Source: a virus (taxonomy: Duplodnaviria > Heunggongvirae > Uroviricota > Caudoviricetes). Taken from it: DNA of 4,749 bases. The notes under the pieces are model-generated. The model ran no database searches. It saw only the letters and a list, made by a program, of their open reading frames with translations, and had not been told where the DNA came from. The first letter of the stretch is position 1. Every line of letters starts with the position of its first letter. Shown here piece after piece: positions 1-4,749 of the stretch. The stretch is from the IMG/VR virus record IMGVR_UViG_2778261527_000011, one strand, 5' to 3'. The position numbers and the translations under genes are program-made.

Positions 1-1164
1 TTACGCCTTCTTTATATCCTCCATAATTCCACAGTGGGACATATTTGGGACATTATCACCAAAAATGTCGTCTATTTTCCTTGCATGCTCTGTCAAATGA
101 TTAGGCGCAAGGTGAGCATACCTACGAACCATTTCTATGGACTCCCATCCGCCCATTTCCTGAAGCACAGATAATGGGACGCCTGACTGGATCAGCCAGC
201 TTGCCCAGGTGTGTCTGAGGTCATGGAAACGGAAATCTTCAATTCCTGCACGACGACAAGCTGATAGCCATGATGTCTTGCTGTCGATGCGCATCTTCCT
301 GACCGCAGGCGTTGATGTTCCATCTGCTCGCTTAGCCGCCTTGGTATGTACAAACACCCATTTGTGATGCTTGCCTATTTGATCACGCAACACTTTACAG
401 GCGGTATCGTTCAGCGCCACACCAATGGCGCGGTTTGATTTGCTCTCTTCTGGATTCACCCAGGCAACTCGTCGCTGCATGTCGATTTGTTGCCATTCCA
501 GATTTATGATGTTCGACTTTCTCAGACCAGTTGCCAGCGCAAACTTGACGACAGATTTCAGTGGTTCGGGGCACTCATCAATAAGGCGTTTTGCTTCCTC
601 CTTTTCCAGCCATCTGACTCGCTTGTTTCTGACCGCTGGTATCTTGATGACAGGCGCTTTTTCCAGCCACTTCCAGTCGCGTTCTGCAGCACGGAGAATG
701 GCCTTTATCATGGCAAGATGCTTTGCCTTTGTCTGAGTTGATACTGGCTTTGGTTCATAAACAGGCGGTTCTTTACCTTTCCTGATGGCGGCCTGAACTT
801 TCTGTTTCCATATTTCTTTCGTCTTTCTGTTATGCATTCTGCTTACAGCAGAGTAAATCTTTGCCTCCGAGATATCTTTAAGCCTTATACCCTCAAAATG
901 TTCAAGCCAGAACTCAATCCGGCTTTTATCTGAATCGAGAGATTTTTTATCAGCTTTTTCCTCAAGCCATCTTAGGCAGGCCTCTTCAAAAGTGACATCA
1001 GGTAAATCCCCTAGCTTTTCTACTCGCCAGAGTTCTGCTTTTCGCTTGTCGTGCAACTCCTGAGCTTGCCGCTTGTCCTTTGTGCCAAGAGATTCCTTAA
1101 TTCGTTTCCCGCCCGGGAGCGAATACGAGGCATACCATATTTCATTTCTGCGGAAGAGTGACAT
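1..1164 (-). CDS. int: Tyrosine site-specific integrase, lambda/P22 family (387 aa, complete; stop at window positions 1-3)
   Basis: Full ORF from the six-frame track. Translation carries the tyrosine recombinase catalytic signature in the C-terminal half (ATGLRKSN...[13 protein letters not shown]...MVRRYAHL, i.e. R / H-x-x-R / Y). From memory the N-terminus ([37 protein letters not shown]) closely resembles P22-type Int; not verified by search. SD-like GAGGAAA lies 4-5 nt upstream of the ATG at 1162-1164. Confidence 0.95.
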
Positions 1165-1403
1165 TTTCTTTCCTCTGTTATGCCATCACCCGCGCTCACC
1201 TGGACAGTATGCAGCGGAGACTGAAGCGCCGCAATGCAAGCTTGCCGTGTTGTGAGGTAAGGAGATTTTGGCTTGGTTGGATCTTTACGTGTTGCCTGTA
1301 GGCGGCCTGTGCGTATCCAGTTAATGGCAGTCGGTCTGGATATTTTGAGAAAATGACAGGCCTCATCGAGTGTGAGGCTGTAAGCACACTGACGGCACGC
1401 ATA
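1020..1403 (-). pseudogene. xis: Excisionase-like (winged-helix / HTH_17-type) reading frame with no in-frame start codon; overlaps the int 5' end by about 140 bp
   Basis: Manual translation of the minus strand in the frame offset from ORF 1196..1663 gives ...[54 protein letters not shown]..., matching the excisionase/AlpA-type HTH pattern (compare lambda Xis N-terminus MYLTLQEW...). The frame is open from a TAA at 1404-1406 to a TAG at 1020-1022, but contains no ATG/GTG/TTG before the HTH. The nearest ATG (1400-1402) is in the frame of the upstream ORF. Confidence 0.5.
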
Positions 1404-1663
1404 TTATCAGCATCGATAAAGCAGCGGGTGCCTTCATCTGCAAGATCTTTAGAATAACGGGTAAAGTCATCGATGCTGGCAGTGGAAAGCGCACCACGGA
1501 AACGGAAGCGATTTAAATTAAATTTTTCCAGATCATGAATGCAGAAATTCTCAGGCAATGCTACAGCATCGGCACCAATCTTACTGATAATTTCATTAAC
1601 ACCCTGAGCAGAAATAAGGGCATGGATTTGATTAATTGCGGTTGCGTCTAAGTTCTGAGACAT
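1196..1663 (-). CDS. Hypothetical prophage protein; only the N-terminal ~87 codons (about 1403..1663) look like genuine coding sequence, the rest of the ORF is the wrong-frame reading of the xis-like region
   Basis: Track ORF. ATG at 1661-1663 preceded by GAGGA with 6-nt spacing. The first ~87 aa ([88 protein letters not shown]) look like a folded protein; the remainder is low-plausibility sequence, while the alternative frame over the same DNA encodes a recognisable HTH. Family not assigned. Confidence 0.5.
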
Positions 1664-1728
1664 AATAAGTCCTCACTATATAAAGATATTCAGTGATGAG
1701 ATAAATAATCAGTTAATTAAAAACGATA

Positions 1729-2091
1729 TTAACGACCTGCTGCGCGGAGTTTTCCGTCAGGTTCACCGGCAAGAGTCAGCAACTGTCCCTGGTCTTCCTG
1801 CAGAATAGTCAGGCGACCACCGCGATTGACATACATCGGCGTTTCGGTGGTGTCTTCTTCGGAAATTTTCCCGCGGTTAGTCGGGCGAACATATGAGAGT
1901 TTGTGTTTGATTTTCACTCGGTTCTCATCAAACGGTTCGATTTCTAGGTTGAGAGAGACCTTACCTTTGGTTTTCGTGTTCATCACACCGGAAGCGACTT
2001 CACTGAGAACTGCGCCGATTTTGGTTTCAAATACGCCGCCGTCCAGCTCCCCGATAAATGCCTGCACATCAGTACTGCGTTCGCTAGCCAT
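1729..2091 (-). CDS. Hypothetical small prophage protein (120 aa)
   Basis: Track ORF 1729..2409, trimmed to the ATG at 2089-2091 (MASERSTDVQAFIGELDGG...), which is preceded by a strong SD GAGGAG (2099-2104) with 7-nt spacing. The upstream extension to 2409 translates to low-complexity R/P/G-rich sequence from GC-rich DNA. No family recognised from sequence alone. Confidence 0.7.
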   Translation of the reverse strand: MASERSTDVQAFIGELDGGVFETKIGAVLSEVASGVMNTKTKGKVSLNLEIEPFDENRVKIKHKLSYVRPTNRGKISEEDTTETPMYVNRGGRLTILQEDQGQLLTLAGEPDGKLRAAGR

Positions 2092-2135
2092 TTTGCTGCT
2101 CCTCATCATATCGACCCTGCAAGGTCGGTTAGTTT

Positions 2136-2330
2136 CTCCACAAAACAGAGAAGAACACCTGCGGTGACTGCCGCCCGGATGGATTGGGTTATGAGCCCGT
2201 CGTCCGGTGATGCTCTTCTCTGTTTTGTAAAAAGGACGGTACCAGCCGGAAGCAAGGGTACAAGCTGGTACCGCCAGGACTACACACAGCATAAAGTTGT
2301 GGTGCCGGGTGCCTCCCGGTGCCTGGCGAA
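2136..2330. other. GC-rich non-coding spacer dense in dyad symmetries; candidate structured RNA or regulatory DNA
   Basis: Perfect 15-bp inverted repeat ACAAAACAGAGAAGA (2140-2154) / TCTTCTCTGTTTTGT (2214-2228) enclosing 59 nt that contain further small stems (GCGG/CCGC 2161-2174; CCGGA/TCCGG 2175-2207). Perfect 10-bp hairpin CGGTACCAGC (2237-2246) / GCTGGTACCG (2264-2273) with a 17-nt loop. CCGGG-tgcct-CCCGG (2305-2319), extendable to 9 bp with G-U pairs in RNA. All six-frame ORFs here overlap each other in several frames and translate to junk. Confidence 0.3.
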
Positions 2331-2500
2331 GGTTGCACACCAGGCGGGTGGGTATCCACAGAAGGTCGACTGTCAGCCTCAACCTTAACCCGCGTGCGCT
2401 GAGCCGCATTCACCACAACGCTAAGGATTCTCTCTGGTTGAAAATACTTAGCTGTTATGTGCCTGCTTTTAGCCACATCAGGCGAGGTGGACCTAGTTAT

Positions 2501-2546
2501 TCCCCAACAACAAGGATTCGGTTAATCTGGATATCCCCAACAACAA
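2501..2546. repeat. 13-bp perfect direct repeat TCCCCAACAACAA, two copies 33 bp apart start-to-start
   Basis: Copies at 2501-2513 and 2534-2546, immediately upstream of the candidate start of the rightward ORF (2561). An inverted partial copy of the AACAACAA core lies at 3203-3210 on the other side of that ORF. Confidence 0.6.
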
Positions 2547-2560
2547 TAAGAGTATTCAAT

Positions 2561-3076
2561 GTGATCGCTGAATTAACGGCAGCAATGACGGCTATTCGTG
2601 AAACAGCCCAGATTGCAAAACTAATGAACGAGGCAAAAACTCAAGCTGAAGTAAATGCGGCTATTGGTGAGCTGAACTCAAAGCTTGCGTCTATTCAGCG
2701 CGAATGCGTGTCTCTCTTTGAACTGGTGGGCTCTTATCAAGAAATAAATGCTTCTCTCAAAGCTAAAATTGCAGAATTCGAAAACTTTGAGGCTCAGACG
2801 GAAGGCTATATCCTTAACCAACTTGAGTCGGGTACTTTTGTATACTCGAAGGAGGTAATCGTGAACGGTGGCAGCATAACCATGCATCTTTGCCCAAAAT
2901 GTTTTGGACAAAAGATAGTATCGATACTTCAACCATTCCCGGTTAGCGAAGATGAGCTTTTTCATAAAAGCAGGTGCCTCCACTGTGAAAATAAGTTTCT
3001 GATGAATAAAAATCCGGATTACGTATCGCCTCCATCCATTGAGGAGTTGTCCAGAAAACTTAACGGCAATCTGTAG
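2561..3076 (+). CDS. Hypothetical protein with N-terminal coiled-coil and C-terminal C4 zinc ribbon (CPKC-x24-CLHC); moron-like accessory gene, function unknown
   Basis: Long plus-strand ORF (track 2297..3076) whose 5' extension is GC-rich junk. Plausible starts are GTG 2561 (AAGAG 8 nt upstream) or ATG 2585 (no clear SD). The N-terminal ~70 aa are heptad-like (AQIAKLMNEAKTQAEVNAAIGELNSKLASIQRE...LKAKIAEFENFEAQ); the C-terminus carries two CxxC pairs. Visibly more A+T-rich than the flanking spacer. Followed by an intrinsic terminator. The antisense ORF 2678..2983 has artefact-like composition. Confidence 0.6.
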   Translation: MIAELTAAMTAIRETAQIAKLMNEAKTQAEVNAAIGELNSKLASIQRECVSLFELVGSYQEINASLKAKIAEFENFEAQTEGYILNQLESGTFVYSKEVIVNGGSITMHLCPKCFGQKIVSILQPFPVSEDELFHKSRCLHCENKFLMNKNPDYVSPPSIEELSRKLNGNL

Positions 3077-3115
3077 ATTACTACTGTTGTGGATATCCAG
3101 ATTGTTAAAGAGCTA

Positions 3116-3140
3116 AGCGTCCTGTAGGGCGCTTTTTTGT
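3116..3140 (+). terminator. Rho-independent terminator for the rightward zinc-ribbon ORF
   Basis: Stem AGCGTCC (3116-3122) / GGGCGCT (3127-3133), 7 bp including one G-U pair, loop TGTA, followed by T-run 3134-3138. Begins 40 nt after the TAG at 3074-3076. The reverse strand lacks a T-tract, so it is unidirectional. Confidence 0.6.
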
Positions 3141-3207
3141 TGCTAACGAATCATCCTGGACTTCATATGCCCCAGGCGGCTACTTCGTGGGCGTCCTGCC
3201 TGTTTGT

Positions 3208-3251
3208 TGTTTCTCTTGGGTACATTATGTATCTCATAGGTACATTGTCAA
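3208..3251 (-). promoter_or_regulatory. Candidate pL-like leftward promoter with overlapping operator-like sites (OL analogue)
   Basis: Minus strand reads TTGACA (plus 3246-3251, consensus -35), then a 16-bp spacer, then CATAAT (plus 3224-3229); alternatively a 17-bp spacer with ATAATG. Operator-like imperfect palindromes TGTATC-tcata-GGTACA (3228-3244) and TGTTTC-tcttg-GGTACA (3208-3224) overlap the spacer/-10/start region. Position (just past the repressor-gene terminator) matches lambda OL/pL topology. Confidence 0.45.
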
Positions 3252-3253
3252 GT

Positions 3254-3278
3254 ATAAAAAAACCTGCCGAAGCAGGTT
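3254..3278 (-). terminator. Rho-independent terminator of the repressor gene
   Basis: On the minus strand: stem AACCTGC / GCAGGTT (7 bp perfect) with a UUCG tetraloop, followed by a run of T (plus-strand A-run 3256-3262). Lies 13 nt downstream of the repressor stop at 3291-3293. Confidence 0.75.
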
Positions 3279-3290
3279 CATAAACATTGA

Positions 3291-3965
3291 TTAGGCTTTG
3301 ATTTTGTATCTTCTTGGTTTTCCTGAGAAAATCACAGTTCCAATTATAGAGCAATTACCGTTGATCTTAATGTAAGGCTCAGGCCAGTTTGGGTTTAACG
3401 CTTTGAGATAACGCTGTGTCCCATCTTCTATCAACCTTTTGAAGGTGGTTTCACCTGTATCGTGCATCAATGCAATAACGTCGTCACCGTGGCAGGCAGG
3501 TACTTCAGGATCGACAAAAATCATGTCTCCCGGGCGGTACTCATCAATCATTGAATCACCTATCACCCGCAAGATATAAGTCATTTCCCCACAGGGTACA
3601 GGGCAGGGATACGTTTCTGCTGTGCTCAAATCAACCTCAGAATATCCAACTTCTTTCCATGCTCCGGCCTGTACCCATGATATGACAGGGACTAATGTGA
3701 TTTGTTTATTAGTGATTGAAACATCAGGTTTTTTTGTGATGTTCGTTGTCTGGTGTTCTTGATCGAGCCATCCGACAGGCAGGTCGAAACATTTTTCGAT
3801 GTGTCGTGCCATGCTGTCACCGATATTTTTAGTAGCACCATCTCCCATAAACCTGCTGGTCTGGGTTGGCTCGCGATCAATCATAGTGGCAAAGGAAGAA
3901 TTCCCTCCAACACCATCTCTCAGTTTTCTGGCGTTAGACCGCCGGATGTCATGGATTGTTTTCAT
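3291..3965 (-). CDS. Phage CI-type repressor with C-terminal LexA-like S24 autopeptidase domain (224 aa)
   Basis: Track ORF. The C-terminal domain has the S24 serine-lysine dyad context (RVIGDSMIDEY ... TTFKRL) and an Ala-Gly candidate cleavage site (SWVQAGAWK). Sits divergent from a cro-like gene with palindromic operators between them. No SD upstream of the ATG; the predicted pRM start coincides with the ATG (leaderless, as for lambda cI). Confidence 0.9.
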   Translation of the reverse strand: MKTIHDIRRSNARKLRDGVGGNSSFATMIDREPTQTSRFMGDGATKNIGDSMARHIEKCFDLPVGWLDQEHQTTNITKKPDVSITNKQITLVPVISWVQAGAWKEVGYSEVDLSTAETYPCPVPCGEMTYILRVIGDSMIDEYRPGDMIFVDPEVPACHGDDVIALMHDTGETTFKRLIEDGTQRYLKALNPNWPEPYIKINGNCSIIGTVIFSGKPRRYKIKA

Positions 3966-4055
3966 AACGAAATTAAAACCCCTGTACCGTTAAGGTACAA
4001 GTATCTTGAAGGTTCATTTCAATCATGTAATATGTACACCGGAGGTACATATTGT
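3966..4055. promoter_or_regulatory. Immunity switch region: divergent pRM-like (leftward) and pR-like (rightward) promoters with 17-bp palindromic operators, consensus TGTACC-N5-GGTACA
   Basis: Operators: perfect palindrome TGTACCGTTAAGGTACA (3983-3999); TGTACAccggaGGTACA (4033-4049, 11/12); weaker AGTATCttgaaGGTTCA (4000-4016). pR-like: -35 TTGAAG (4006-4011), 16-bp spacer, -10 TAATAT (4028-4033), then SD GGAGG (4041-4045) and the cro ATG at 4056. pRM-like on the minus strand: -35 TTGTAC (plus 3995-4000), 17-bp spacer, -10 TTTAAT (plus 3972-3977), predicted start at or near the repressor ATG (3965). Confidence 0.55.
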
Positions 4056-4256
4056 ATGAAAGCGTATTGGGACTCTTTAACCAAAGAACAGCAGGGCGAG
4101 TTGGCCGGAAAAGTTGGCTCAACTCCTGGCTACTTACGGCTGGTTTTCAATGGCTATAAAAAAGCCAGTTTTGTGCTGGCTAAAAAACTTGAGCAATGCA
4201 CGTCAGGTGCAATTACGAAATCTGACTTAAGACCGGATATCTATCCGAAAGATTAG
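4056..4256 (+). CDS. Cro-like small DNA-binding regulator (66 aa), YdaS/Cro family
   Basis: ATG at 4056 preceded by GGAGG (4041-4045). Product MKAYWDSLTKEQQGELAGKVGSTPGYLRLVFNGYKKASFVLAKKLEQCTSGAITKSDLRPDIYPKD has the size, position and C-terminal LRPDI-type motif I associate with enterobacterial prophage Cro/YdaS proteins. The track ORF 3753..4256 is the same frame with a spurious N-terminal extension overlapping the repressor gene. Confidence 0.8.
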   Translation: MKAYWDSLTKEQQGELAGKVGSTPGYLRLVFNGYKKASFVLAKKLEQCTSGAITKSDLRPDIYPKD

Positions 4257-4299
4257 CAGAACACTTTCAATTTTTAACCACAGAACGATGAGGCTAATC

Positions 4300-4749
4300 G
4301 TGGGTAAGCATCACTGGAAAATAGAAAAACAGCCTGAGTGGTACGTGAAAGCTGTCAGAAAAACTATCGCGGCGTTGCCGGGTGGTTACGCTGAAGCGGC
4401 TGACTGGCTCGATGTAACAGAAAACGCTTTATTCAACCGCCTTCGTGCAGATGGCGATCAGATTTTCCCGCTGGGATGGGCAATGGTTTTACAGCGTGCT
4501 GGTGGCACTCACTTCATTGCTGATGCTGTGGCGCAGTCTGCAAATGGCGTCTTTGTGTCGCTTCCTGACGTCGAGGATGTGGACAACGCCGATATTAACC
4601 AGCGTCTGCTGGAAGTCATTGAACAGATCGGCAGTTATTCAAAACAGATTCGTTCAGCAATCGAAGACGGTGTAGTGGAACCGCATGAGAAGACAGCAAT
4701 TAACGACGAGCTGTATCTCTCAATTTCGAAGCTGCAGGAGCATGCAGCA
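4300..4749 (+). CDS. YdaT/CII-like early regulator, 3'-truncated by the window end (150 codons visible, no stop)
   Basis: Open frame from GTG 4300 (GAGG 6 nt upstream; alternative in-frame ATG at 4288) to the window end. Missing from the track because it has no stop in the window; track ORF 4445..4675 is a different frame. Product VGKHHWKIEKQPEWYVKAVRKTIAALPGGYAEAADWLDVTENALFNRLRADGDQIFPLGWAMVLQRAGGTHF... sits where lambdoid phages encode cII; family assignment from memory, not verified. Confidence 0.65.
   Translation, partial: MGKHHWKIEKQPEWYVKAVRKTIAALPGGYAEAADWLDVTENALFNRLRADGDQIFPLGWAMVLQRAGGTHFIADAVAQSANGVFVSLPDVEDVDNADINQRLLEVIEQIGSYSKQIRSAIEDGVVEPHEKTAINDELYLSISKLQEHAA

What the first reader, a model, noticed from the sequence alone, without database searches (positions are those of the whole stretch)
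2561..3140. Convergently oriented coiled-coil + zinc-ribbon gene inserted between the pL-like promoter and the leftward early genes
In lambdoid phages the DNA left of the repressor is normally a continuous leftward operon. Here a plus-strand ORF with its own unidirectional terminator and lower G+C than its flanks sits in that slot, pointing the opposite way to every neighbour on its left. The product (about 160-170 aa) has a heptad-like N-terminal coiled coil and a C-terminal CPKC-x24-CLHC zinc ribbon, an architecture I cannot map to any core phage function. The resemblance to DksA/TraR-type proteins is only superficial, since the Cys-pair spacing and C-terminal tail are longer. Repressor-adjacent, lysogen-expressed morons are the classic location of superinfection-exclusion and anti-phage genes (rexAB and sieB in lambda, established knowledge), so this is a candidate uncharacterised defence or host-modulation gene.
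Basis: partly seen in the sequence, partly recalled or inferred. Interest (0 to 1): 0.72.

Follow-up and report, generated by a model that had tools for sequence, protein, structure and literature searches.

The report
Rip1-family antiphage pore gene in prophage

Summary
A 171-aa plus-strand ORF (2561-3076) lies between a strong leftward pL-like promoter (3251-3224) and the leftward early genes. It has two long N-terminal helices, a C-terminal CPKC-x24-CLHC zinc ribbon and a plus-strand-only terminator (3115-3134).

It is not an orphan. A 23-sequence profile matches PDB 9oox chain L, Rip1 of phage HK446 bound to the T6 small terminase, at E=7e-23 over nearly the full length. An AlphaFold model (pLDDT 89.6) finds only 9oox with Foldseek (E 5e-7). 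The four Cys are invariant across the family.

HK446 Rip1, HK620 HkaP and lambda SieB (not homologous) all sit convergently inside the pL operon, so the position is classical rather than anomalous. Homologues in Citrobacter and Klebsiella are also repressor-adjacent.

The best explanation is a single-gene abortive-infection sensor and effector working like Rip1. The trigger, promoter and phenotype are untested.

Side finding: the gene occupies a conserved slot closed by a split palindrome (AATCTGGAT...ATCCAGATT). The slot sits beside a boxA-like motif in the pL leader and holds at least four unrelated cargos in different strains.

Verdict: new member of a known kind, modest interest.

The parts
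2461..2532 (+). Conserved non-coding leader of the cargo slot. It contains the GCCTG-N13-CAGGC hairpin, CCCCAACAACAAGGATTCGG, and the left half of the split palindrome (AATCTGGAT, 2524-2532).
   Evidence: It is nearly invariant at the DNA level across E. coli, Citrobacter, Klebsiella, Kosakonia, Buttiauxella and others, while sequence further upstream is unrelated. No sigma-70 promoter was detected in it.
2524..2549 (.). Left arm of a 26-nt inverted repeat that brackets the ORF.
   Evidence: the repeat finder pair I1, 85% complementary to 3078-3103. The predicted duplex is -26 to -31 kcal/mol on either strand.
2548..2552 (+). Shine-Dalgarno AAGAG, 8 nt before the GTG start.
   Evidence: Read directly from the sequence. 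AGAG or GGAG is present at the same position in related loci.
2561..3076 (+). Rip1-family gene, 171 aa.
   Evidence: phmmer to PDB 9oox_L gives E 2.2e-7 and the profile gives E 7.1e-23. Foldseek to 9oox_L/M gives E 5e-7, probability 1.0. It matches PHROG 1244 at E 3e-59. dN/dS is 0.16.
2564..2797 (+). N-terminal helical region (residues 2-24 and 28-79). It is the counterpart of the amphipathic, pore-forming N-terminal part of Rip1.
   Evidence: AlphaFold secondary structure. The hydrophobic moment reaches 0.44 and there is no transmembrane segment (max KD19 0.85).
2810..3010 (+). C-terminal beta-rich zinc-ribbon domain (residues 84-150). Cys codons are at 2891-2893, 2900-2902, 2975-2977 and 2984-2986. 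It is the counterpart of the Rip1 half that contacts the phage ring protein.
   Evidence: C111, C114, C139 and C142 are invariant in 23 close and 14 distant family members, including HK446 Rip1. pLDDT is 92-95.
3078..3103 (.). Right arm of the inverted repeat. The right half of the split palindrome is ATCCAGATT, 3095-3103.
   Evidence: Homology with strains carrying other cargos resumes exactly at 3095.
3102..3113 (-). boxA-like motif GCTCTTTAACAA on the leftward (pL) transcript, about 105 nt after the predicted start.
   Evidence: Single occurrence in the window and conserved in the right flank of the related loci. The match to the rrn boxA consensus TGCTCTTTAACAA is from my own knowledge and was not tested functionally.
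3115..3140 (+). Intrinsic terminator active on the + strand only. It is part of the conserved slot frame.
   Evidence: The same sequence follows different cargos.
3224..3251 (-). pL-like early leftward promoter, TTGACA-16-CATAAT, with GGTACAT operator-like repeats at 3219 and 3239.
3291..3965 (-). cI-type repressor (ymfK, LexA/S24 family) with its own terminator at 3279-3260. This is context that defines the slot.
   Evidence: Pfam Peptidase_S24 at E 1.5e-26, RefSeq annotation, terminator.

Best explanation
The ORF encodes a divergent member of the Rip1 (ring interacting pore 1) family of prophage-borne, single-protein abortive-infection defences.

By homology, the C-terminal zinc-ribbon/beta domain would recognise an oligomeric ring-shaped late protein of a superinfecting phage, either the small terminase or the portal. 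Rip1 protomers would then assemble as a ring around it, and the long N-terminal amphipathic helices would form a membrane pore. That pore kills or prematurely permeabilises the infected cell before progeny mature.

Shown here: family membership by sequence, predicted fold, invariant residues and prophage moron context.

Inferred from the characterised relatives: the trigger class, ring assembly, pore formation and abortive outcome.

Inferred from anatomy only: in the lysogen, cI represses pL, so the gene is free to be expressed from an unidentified plus-strand promoter. On induction, convergent pL transcription runs antisense through the gene and would damp it. That could spare the phage's own terminase or portal from triggering it.
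For: - **Sequence:** phmmer gives E=2.2e-7 and BLASTP 27% identity over 148 residues to HK446 Rip1. A profile of 23 homologues gives E=7.1e-23, 84 bits, covering positions 6-156 of 172 against residues 16-160 of 164.
- **Conserved residues:** the four Cys plus L66 and V94 are invariant, and Q46, Y83, Y95 and L123 nearly so, across E. coli, Pseudomonas (JBD30_030), HK620 HkaP and HK446 Rip1.
- **Context:** HK446 rip1 is itself a convergent gene inside the pL operon next to N. Close homologues are repressor-adjacent in Citrobacter and Klebsiella. Others sit in the pL operon next to an N-type gene in Edwardsiella and beside terminase genes on the opposite strand in Arsenophonus and Pseudomonas Casadabanvirus.
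- **Carriage:** the gene is carried at 98.8% identity by the sequenced E. coli phages PhiR49_1 and PhiR29.
- **Selection:** purifying, dN/dS 0.16.
- **Rip1 mechanism:** taken from the summary of Patel et al. 2026 in PMC13434031 section 5, and from PMC12908700 and PMC13601566.
Against: - Identity to the characterised Rip1 proteins is only 27-29%, and the C-terminal (sensor) half is the more divergent. Both the trigger and the activity could therefore differ.
- No plus-strand promoter was found by consensus scan, so expression in the lysogen is unproven.
- The strong convergent pL, and the fact that this copy sits in a decayed prophage, leave open that this allele is silent. The prophage has a 1.87-kb deletion of yfdT-yfdQ and is a DLP12-site remnant.
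- I could not read the primary Rip1 paper. The mechanism is cited from secondary sources and the PDB title.
- Oligomer formation and pore formation were not modelled.
Confidence: 0.8

Rival explanations
1. It has a Rip1-like fold but serves the phage itself. It would bind the prophage's own terminase or portal ring to time lysis or control packaging, not to defend against other phages.
For: In Pseudomonas Casadabanvirus and Arsenophonus the homologue sits right beside the terminase genes. The family's ligands are packaging proteins.
Against: The gene is on the opposite strand from its neighbours everywhere and is absent from many otherwise identical prophages, where unrelated cargos replace it. 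That is moron behaviour, not core-gene behaviour. It is retained intact in a cryptic prophage with no annotated terminase, portal or capsid genes. The characterised members act against other phages.
Confidence: 0.08
2. It is a SieB-type superinfection exclusion protein, as the HK620 annotators guessed for hkaP from its position.
For: It has the same position and orientation as lambda sieB, which is a plus-strand gene at 34482-35036 abutting N. HK620 hkaP is annotated 'putative superinfection exclusion protein'.
Against: There is no detectable homology to lambda SieB (hhalign probability 0.1%). No transmembrane segment is predicted. There is clear homology to Rip1 instead.
Confidence: 0.03
3. 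It is a coiled-coil plus zinc-ribbon regulator of the CT398/HP0958 or DksA/TraR kind, acting on RNA polymerase, sigma factors or mRNA.
Confidence: 0.04

Closest known systems
Rip1 of Escherichia phage HK446 (HK446_037; PDB 9oox, complex with T6 small terminase)
   Same: It has the same length class (164 vs 171 aa) and the same architecture of N-terminal helices plus a CxxC-x23/24-CxxC domain. Homology and fold match cover the full length. It is also a convergent plus-strand gene inside the leftward early operon of a lambdoid E. coli phage.
   Different: Identity is only 27%. HK446 rip1 lies after N, between N and cIII. The window gene lies directly after pL, in a phage type with no N gene, inside a palindrome-closed slot. 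The trigger specificity of the window protein is unknown.
Pseudomonas aeruginosa prophage Rip1 (Patel et al., Nature 2026) and its Casadabanvirus homologues (JBD30_030, DMS3, MP38 ORF25, D3112 orf25)
   Same: It belongs to the same family (tblastn E 7e-12, 29% identity over 89% of the query). It is a single gene on the opposite strand to its neighbours in a temperate phage.
   Different: It is located between the terminase subunit genes in Mu-like phages rather than next to the repressor. Escapers there map to the portal protein, according to the review.
HK620 HkaP / HK630 HkaP
   Same: It is a family member (E 4e-13, 28% identity). It is a convergent gene in the pL operon and was long annotated as a putative superinfection exclusion protein.
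   Different: It lies downstream of N and hkaQ, and a pL-strand terminator tL1 is annotated inside its coding region. No minus-strand terminator was found inside the window ORF.
Lambda SieB
   Same: It is a positional and orientational analogue: a lysogen-expressed exclusion gene pointing against pL transcription.
   Different: It is not homologous.
CT398 / HP0958 coiled-coil zinc-ribbon proteins and DksA/TraR
   Same: They share a gross architecture of a helical hairpin plus a four-Cys zinc ribbon.
   Different: There is no sequence relationship, the structural superposition is poor, and the biology differs.

Membership tests
Rip1 (ring interacting pore 1) antiphage family | Full-length sequence homology to an experimentally characterised Rip1 | tested here: met
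   phmmer gives E 2.2e-7. A profile of 23 homologues gives E 7.1e-23 and covers 6-156/172 against 16-160/164 of HK446 Rip1. BLASTP gives 27% identity, E 3e-11.
Rip1 (ring interacting pore 1) antiphage family | Same fold as the solved Rip1 protomer (9oox) | tested here: met
Rip1 (ring interacting pore 1) antiphage family | Long N-terminal amphipathic helical region and no classical transmembrane segment | tested here: met
   Helices are predicted at 2-24 and 28-79. The hydrophobic moment is 0.34-0.44 for windows within residues 4-57, and the maximum 19-residue hydropathy is 0.85. This is prediction only.
Rip1 (ring interacting pore 1) antiphage family | C-terminal domain with two conserved CxxC pairs | tested here: met
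   C111, C114, C139 and C142 are invariant in alignments A1 and A2, which include HK446 Rip1, HkaP and JBD30_030.
Rip1 (ring interacting pore 1) antiphage family | Stand-alone gene in a prophage or temperate phage, oriented against its neighbours | tested here: met
Rip1 (ring interacting pore 1) antiphage family | Assembles as a ring (12-mer) around an oligomeric phage ring protein (small terminase 11-mer or portal) | not testable with these tools
   Only single-chain structure prediction is available. This needs a multimer prediction or biochemistry.
Rip1 (ring interacting pore 1) antiphage family | Protects against phage by membrane permeabilisation, and is not toxic without the trigger | not testable with these tools
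   Requires experiments.
SieB superinfection exclusion | Homology to lambda/P22 SieB | tested here: not met
   hhalign of the family alignment against lambda SieB gives probability 0.1%, E 0.51.
DksA/TraR C4 zinc finger (PF01258) | Match to the Pfam model | tested here: not met
   There is no hit at E<=0.1, only weak coiled-coil noise.
PADLOC-DB v2 defence families | Match to any catalogued defence protein model | tested here: inconclusive
   There is no hit. The library dates from 2023, and HK446 Rip1 itself gets no significant hit in it (only PDC-M53B at E 0.025), so the negative result says nothing.

The most novel reading that the evidence does not exclude
The gene is one interchangeable cargo of a previously undescribed, conserved moron slot built into the pL leader of an N-less lambdoid prophage family.

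The anatomy of the slot is as follows. A boxA-like motif is followed by a split palindrome (AATCTGGAT...ATCCAGATT, extended by cargo-specific complementary bases). That palindrome closes a long-range stem around whichever gene is inserted. The insert can be Rip1-like, ECs1072-family plus a small antisense gene, an LprI-like secreted protein, or a membrane protein.

The stem and the convergent pL transcript would couple cargo expression to the lysis-lysogeny state, with the cargo on in the lysogen and silenced or processed on induction. That would explain how a phage can carry a sensor of terminase or portal rings without killing itself.
Probability: 0.25. Interest if true: 0.5.

Novelty: new member of a known kind. 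Interest (0 to 1): 0.3.

Why it matters
It gives a function to a gene that RefSeq still calls 'hypothetical protein'. About 686 of 5426 complete E. coli genomes carry this sequence over at least 80% of its length, including O157:H7 strains.

It extends the Rip1 defence family to a well-separated Enterobacterales clade, and that clade's sensor domain may recognise different terminase or portal rings.

It also points to a defined, easily recognisable repressor-adjacent slot. The slot is bounded by a 29-nt invariant leader motif and a shared terminator, and other uncharacterised cargos in it are good candidates for new defence or exclusion genes.

For phage therapy and phage-host prediction in E. 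coli, Klebsiella and Citrobacter, this is one more resistance determinant to look for.

Tried and rejected
- **Library searches on the ORF.** Pfam and NCBIfam gave only sub-threshold coiled-coil or zinc-ribbon noise. PADLOC gave no hit, but it predates Rip1 and HK446 Rip1 gets no significant hit in it either.
- **SieB homology.** Rejected.
- **Plus-strand promoter.** I looked in 2050-2560, and upstream of the Klebsiella and HK446 homologues, using the consensus scan. Nothing convincing turned up. Reading the conserved leader by eye gave no hexamer pair with A2/T6 in the -10. The promoter remains unidentified.
- **Rfam on the leader.** Nothing was found in the window or in ten related loci.
- **Cognate versus non-cognate pairing of the inner repeat arms.** This was decisive only for the HH97 cassette, and to a lesser extent the CREC-591 cassette. 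The Rip1-type cassettes all share similar inner arms, so the test has little power there.
- **Literature.** The search for 'hkaP' returned only unrelated acronyms. The primary Rip1 paper (doi 10.1038/s41586-025-10075-1) is not held.

Full report
**Where the window comes from.** The window is 100% identical to a stretch of the E. coli strain H2 chromosome. It starts right after tRNA-Arg, with the integrase annotated intD. The prophage there is a decayed lambdoid element. Downstream RefSeq annotates quuD, essD, rrrD, rzpD and bor but no terminase, portal or capsid gene.

The window is also 98.9-99.4% identical to the left end of the sequenced phage PhiR49_1, apart from a 1,872-bp deletion. That deletion removes yfdT, eaE, yfdR and the C-terminal part of yfdQ.

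Gene order in the window is:
- int, 1-1164 (-)
- yfdQ/DUF2303 fragment, 1382-1663 (-)
- yfdP, 1729-2091 (-)
- a structured non-coding region, 2100-2560
- the flagged ORF, 2561-3076 (+)
- a cI-type S24 repressor, ymfK, 3291-3965 (-)
- cro-like ymfT, 4056-4256 (+)
- cII-like ymfL, from 4300 (+)

These assignments rest.

**Checking the observation.**
- The ORF has a GTG start preceded by AAGAG, and encodes 171 aa.
- The N-terminus MIAEL is conserved in every homologue, and the Klebsiella gene has an ATG at the same place. The annotated start is therefore right.
- The longer 243-259-aa reading used in the PhiR49_1 record is an over-extension.
- The CPKC-x24-CLHC motif is exact.
- The terminator at 3115-3134 works only on the plus strand.
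- The leftward promoter TTGACA-16-CATAAT at 3251-3224 matches 11 of 12 consensus positions. It is embedded in GGTACAT repeats that recur between cI and cro, as expected for OL and OR of one repressor.
- The G+C claim is only half right. The ORF (42.6%) is lower than its left flank (about 52%) but not lower than cI or cro (44-45%).
- The gene is under purifying selection, with dN/dS 0.16 against the O157:H7 allele.

**What the protein is.** Pfam, NCBIfam and PADLOC give nothing useful. PHROGs places it in phrog_1244, of unknown function.

The search against PDB sequences was decisive. The single protein hits 9oox chain L, 'ring interacting pore 1 (Rip1)', at E=2.2e-7. A profile of 23 homologues raises this to E=7.1e-23 over practically the whole length of both proteins.

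An AlphaFold model built on that alignment has mean pLDDT 89.6. It shows helices at 2-24 and 28-79, then a beta-rich domain carrying the two CxxC pairs.

With Foldseek against the PDB, the only hits below E 0.1 are 9oox_L and 9oox_M, at E 5-6e-7 and probability 1.00. That entry is titled 'Cryo-EM structure of the Escherichia phage HK446 Rip1 in complex with the Enterobacteria phage T6 small terminase'.

Across an alignment that includes HK446 Rip1, HK620 HkaP, Pseudomonas JBD30_030 and distant metagenomic members, the four Cys, L66 and V94 are invariant. Q46, Y83, Y95 and L123 are nearly so.

The family is large. There are 3261 representatives of 50%-identity clusters at E<=1e-3 and 1721 at E<=1e-10. 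Among the 150 best hits listed, most are 145-175 aa long and match end to end.

**What Rip1 does (from the literature).** I could not obtain the primary paper: Patel et al., Nature 651:1060, 2026, doi 10.1038/s41586-025-10075-1. A 2026 review summarises it (PMC13434031) as follows.
- Rip1 is a prophage-encoded single protein from P. aeruginosa, located between the terminase genes, that protects against other phages.
- It is not toxic alone.
- Cryo-EM shows twelve Rip1 protomers around an 11-mer small-terminase ring.
- The N-terminal part is an amphipathic helix and the C-terminal half contacts the ring.
- The complex forms a pore that releases dye from liposomes and makes holes in cells.
- Related genes are widespread in Proteobacteria, mostly in prophages.

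Two other papers agree on the essentials (PMC12908700; PMC13601566).

**Context of relatives.** HK446 rip1 (HK446_037) is a plus-strand gene wedged between N and cIII in the leftward operon. Its relative hkaP occupies the same place in HK620 and HK630, where it was annotated long ago as a 'putative superinfection exclusion protein'.

Lambda's sieB is also a plus-strand gene abutting N, but it is not homologous to this family. The premise that the region left of the repressor is normally an uninterrupted leftward operon is therefore too strong. A rightward exclusion gene in that operon is a classical arrangement.

Closer relatives of the window protein lie immediately next to the repressor in Citrobacter (62% identity; xis, gene, cI) and Klebsiella (49%). 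In E. coli O157:H7 the gene sits between a truncated exonuclease gene and DUF1391-racR. In Edwardsiella it is in the pL operon near an N-type gene, together with two other plus-strand genes. In Arsenophonus, as in the Pseudomonas Mu-like phages, it is beside the terminase genes on the opposite strand.

Among complete E. coli genomes, 686 of 5426 carry this sequence over at least 80% of the 641-nt query.

**How it most likely works here.** Membership in the Rip1 family is shown by sequence, predicted fold, invariant residues and context. The mechanism is inferred by homology: recognition of a terminase or portal ring by the C-terminal domain, ring assembly, pore formation by the N-terminal helices, and abortive infection.

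The trigger of this clade is unknown. The protein is only 27-29% identical to the studied members, and the C-terminal half is the more variable part (dN/dS 0.43 vs 0.17 in the Klebsiella comparison).

Expression is the weakest link. No consensus sigma-70 promoter is detectable on the plus strand upstream. The conserved plus-strand terminator implies that plus-strand transcription occurs.

The anatomy suggests the following logic, which is inference only. With cI bound at OL, pL is silent and the gene can be expressed. After induction, the strong pL transcribes antisense through it.

**The slot (outside the original finding).** The ORF is bracketed by a 26-nt inverted repeat, 2524-2549 and 3078-3103.

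Comparison with other strains shows that homology breaks exactly at the centre of a split palindrome, AATCTGGAT | cargo | ATCCAGATT. Window 1381-2532 and 3095-4749 are 98-99% identical to strain HH97, while the 560 bp in between are unrelated.

The same leader, repeat and terminator enclose at least four different cargos:
- Rip1-like genes, 30-99% identical, in E. coli, Citrobacter, Klebsiella, Scandinavium, Enterobacter, Buttiauxella, Kluyvera, Kosakonia and Izhakiella.
- An ECs1072-family gene plus a small antisense gene, in E. coli CREC-591, ET791 and Shigella.
- A signal-peptide protein with a weak LprI match, in HH97.
- A small ORF plus a 151-159-aa two-helix membrane protein, in Atlantibacter and Pseudescherichia.

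The roughly 70-nt leader (GCCTG-N13-CAGGC...TTATTCCCCAACAACAAGGATTCGGTTAATCTGGAT) is far better conserved than the proteins it precedes, and sequence upstream of it is unrelated between genera.

Each cargo type carries its own extra complementary bases next to the constant arms. In HH97 these are GACT/AGTC. In all 12 loci examined a duplex of 13-23 bp, at -18 to -30 kcal/mol, is predicted.

On the leftward transcript the right arm directly follows GCTCTTTAACAA. That sequence equals the rrn-type boxA consensus in 12 of 13 positions. The consensus is from my own knowledge and the motif was not tested functionally.

Whether the stem acts in RNA or marks a recombination site is open. In RNA it could join boxA to the downstream leader across the cargo, create an RNase III site, or pair the mRNA ends.

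**Verdict.** This is a new, divergent member of a known kind, in a position that is classical for such genes. The slot architecture is the part that may be new.

Noticed in passing
window 2524-2532 and 3095-3103 (extended arms 2524-2549 / 3078-3103); L006 3025-3044 / 3701-3720; L031 about 2525-2537 / 3078-3090; L008, L013, L019-L029: A split palindrome, AATCTGGAT...ATCCAGATT, plus cargo-specific complementary bases, closes the slot. The slot holds at least four unrelated cargos in different strains and genera: Rip1-like, ECs1072-family plus an antisense small gene, an LprI-like secreted protein, and a membrane protein with small ORFs. Homology between strains breaks exactly at the palindrome centre.
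   Followed up: partly
window 2461-2532 (+): A roughly 70-nt non-coding leader is nearly invariant across Enterobacterales genera and much better conserved than the ORFs it precedes. It includes a GCCTG-N13-CAGGC hairpin, the direct repeat TCCCCAACAACAA (2501, 2534) and AAC/AAG triplet runs just before the start codon. There is no Rfam match and no recognisable sigma-70 promoter. Its function is unknown.
   Followed up: partly
window 3102-3113 (-): GCTCTTTAACAA lies on the leftward transcript about 105 nt after the pL start. It matches the rrn-type boxA consensus in 12 of 13 positions (consensus from my own knowledge). The hairpin that acts as the plus-strand terminator precedes it, and the motif is conserved in related loci. 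This phage type has no N gene between pL and the early genes, which suggests a Nus-factor-dependent, N-independent leader.
   Followed up: partly
window 2226-2449 (-): A match to Rfam STnc100 (RF02076) scores 42.4 bits, E 5.8e-7, just under the gathering score of 47. It covers the full model length and ends in a terminator hairpin (2237-2273) plus a U-run. STnc100 and PasD are described as related prophage sRNAs (bioRxiv 10.64898/2026.05.13.724894). RefSeq annotates a 'frameshifted hypothetical protein' pseudogene over this stretch (window 2106-2416), which is probably a miscall of the RNA region.
   Followed up: partly
window 2140-2164 / 2204-2228: A 25-nt inverted repeat, 84% complementary with a 39-nt loop, lies between the STnc100-like terminator and the yfdP start. 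It would form a large hairpin in the leftward leader, and a similar sequence is present in the Citrobacter locus L008 and in E. coli L006.
   Followed up: no
window about 1381/1382: This is the junction of a 1,872-bp deletion relative to phage PhiR49_1 (its 1397-3268). The deletion removes yfdT, eaE, the HD hydrolase yfdR and the C-terminal part of yfdQ, leaving a DUF2303 fragment at 1382-1663. Most other E. coli genomes with this region lack the deletion.
   Followed up: yes
window 3219-3245 and 3983-4050: GGTACA(T) motifs are repeated at the pL-like promoter (3219, 3239) and in the cI-cro intergenic region (3994, 4044, inverted at 3983 and 4032). They are likely the OL and OR operators of the ymfK repressor.
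   Followed up: partly
L005 (PhiR49_1) 4237-4965: The phage record annotates a 243-aa CDS that extends the Rip1-like ORF upstream across the conserved leader and the STnc100-like region. Conservation of the MIAEL N-terminus shows that the 171-aa form is the real product.
   Followed up: yes
L011/L012 (Edwardsiella) 4001-6279: The Rip1-like gene is followed by two further plus-strand genes of 228 and 175 aa with no Pfam hits. All three are convergent with the N-containing leftward operon, so this may be a small cluster of morons or defence genes.
   Followed up: no
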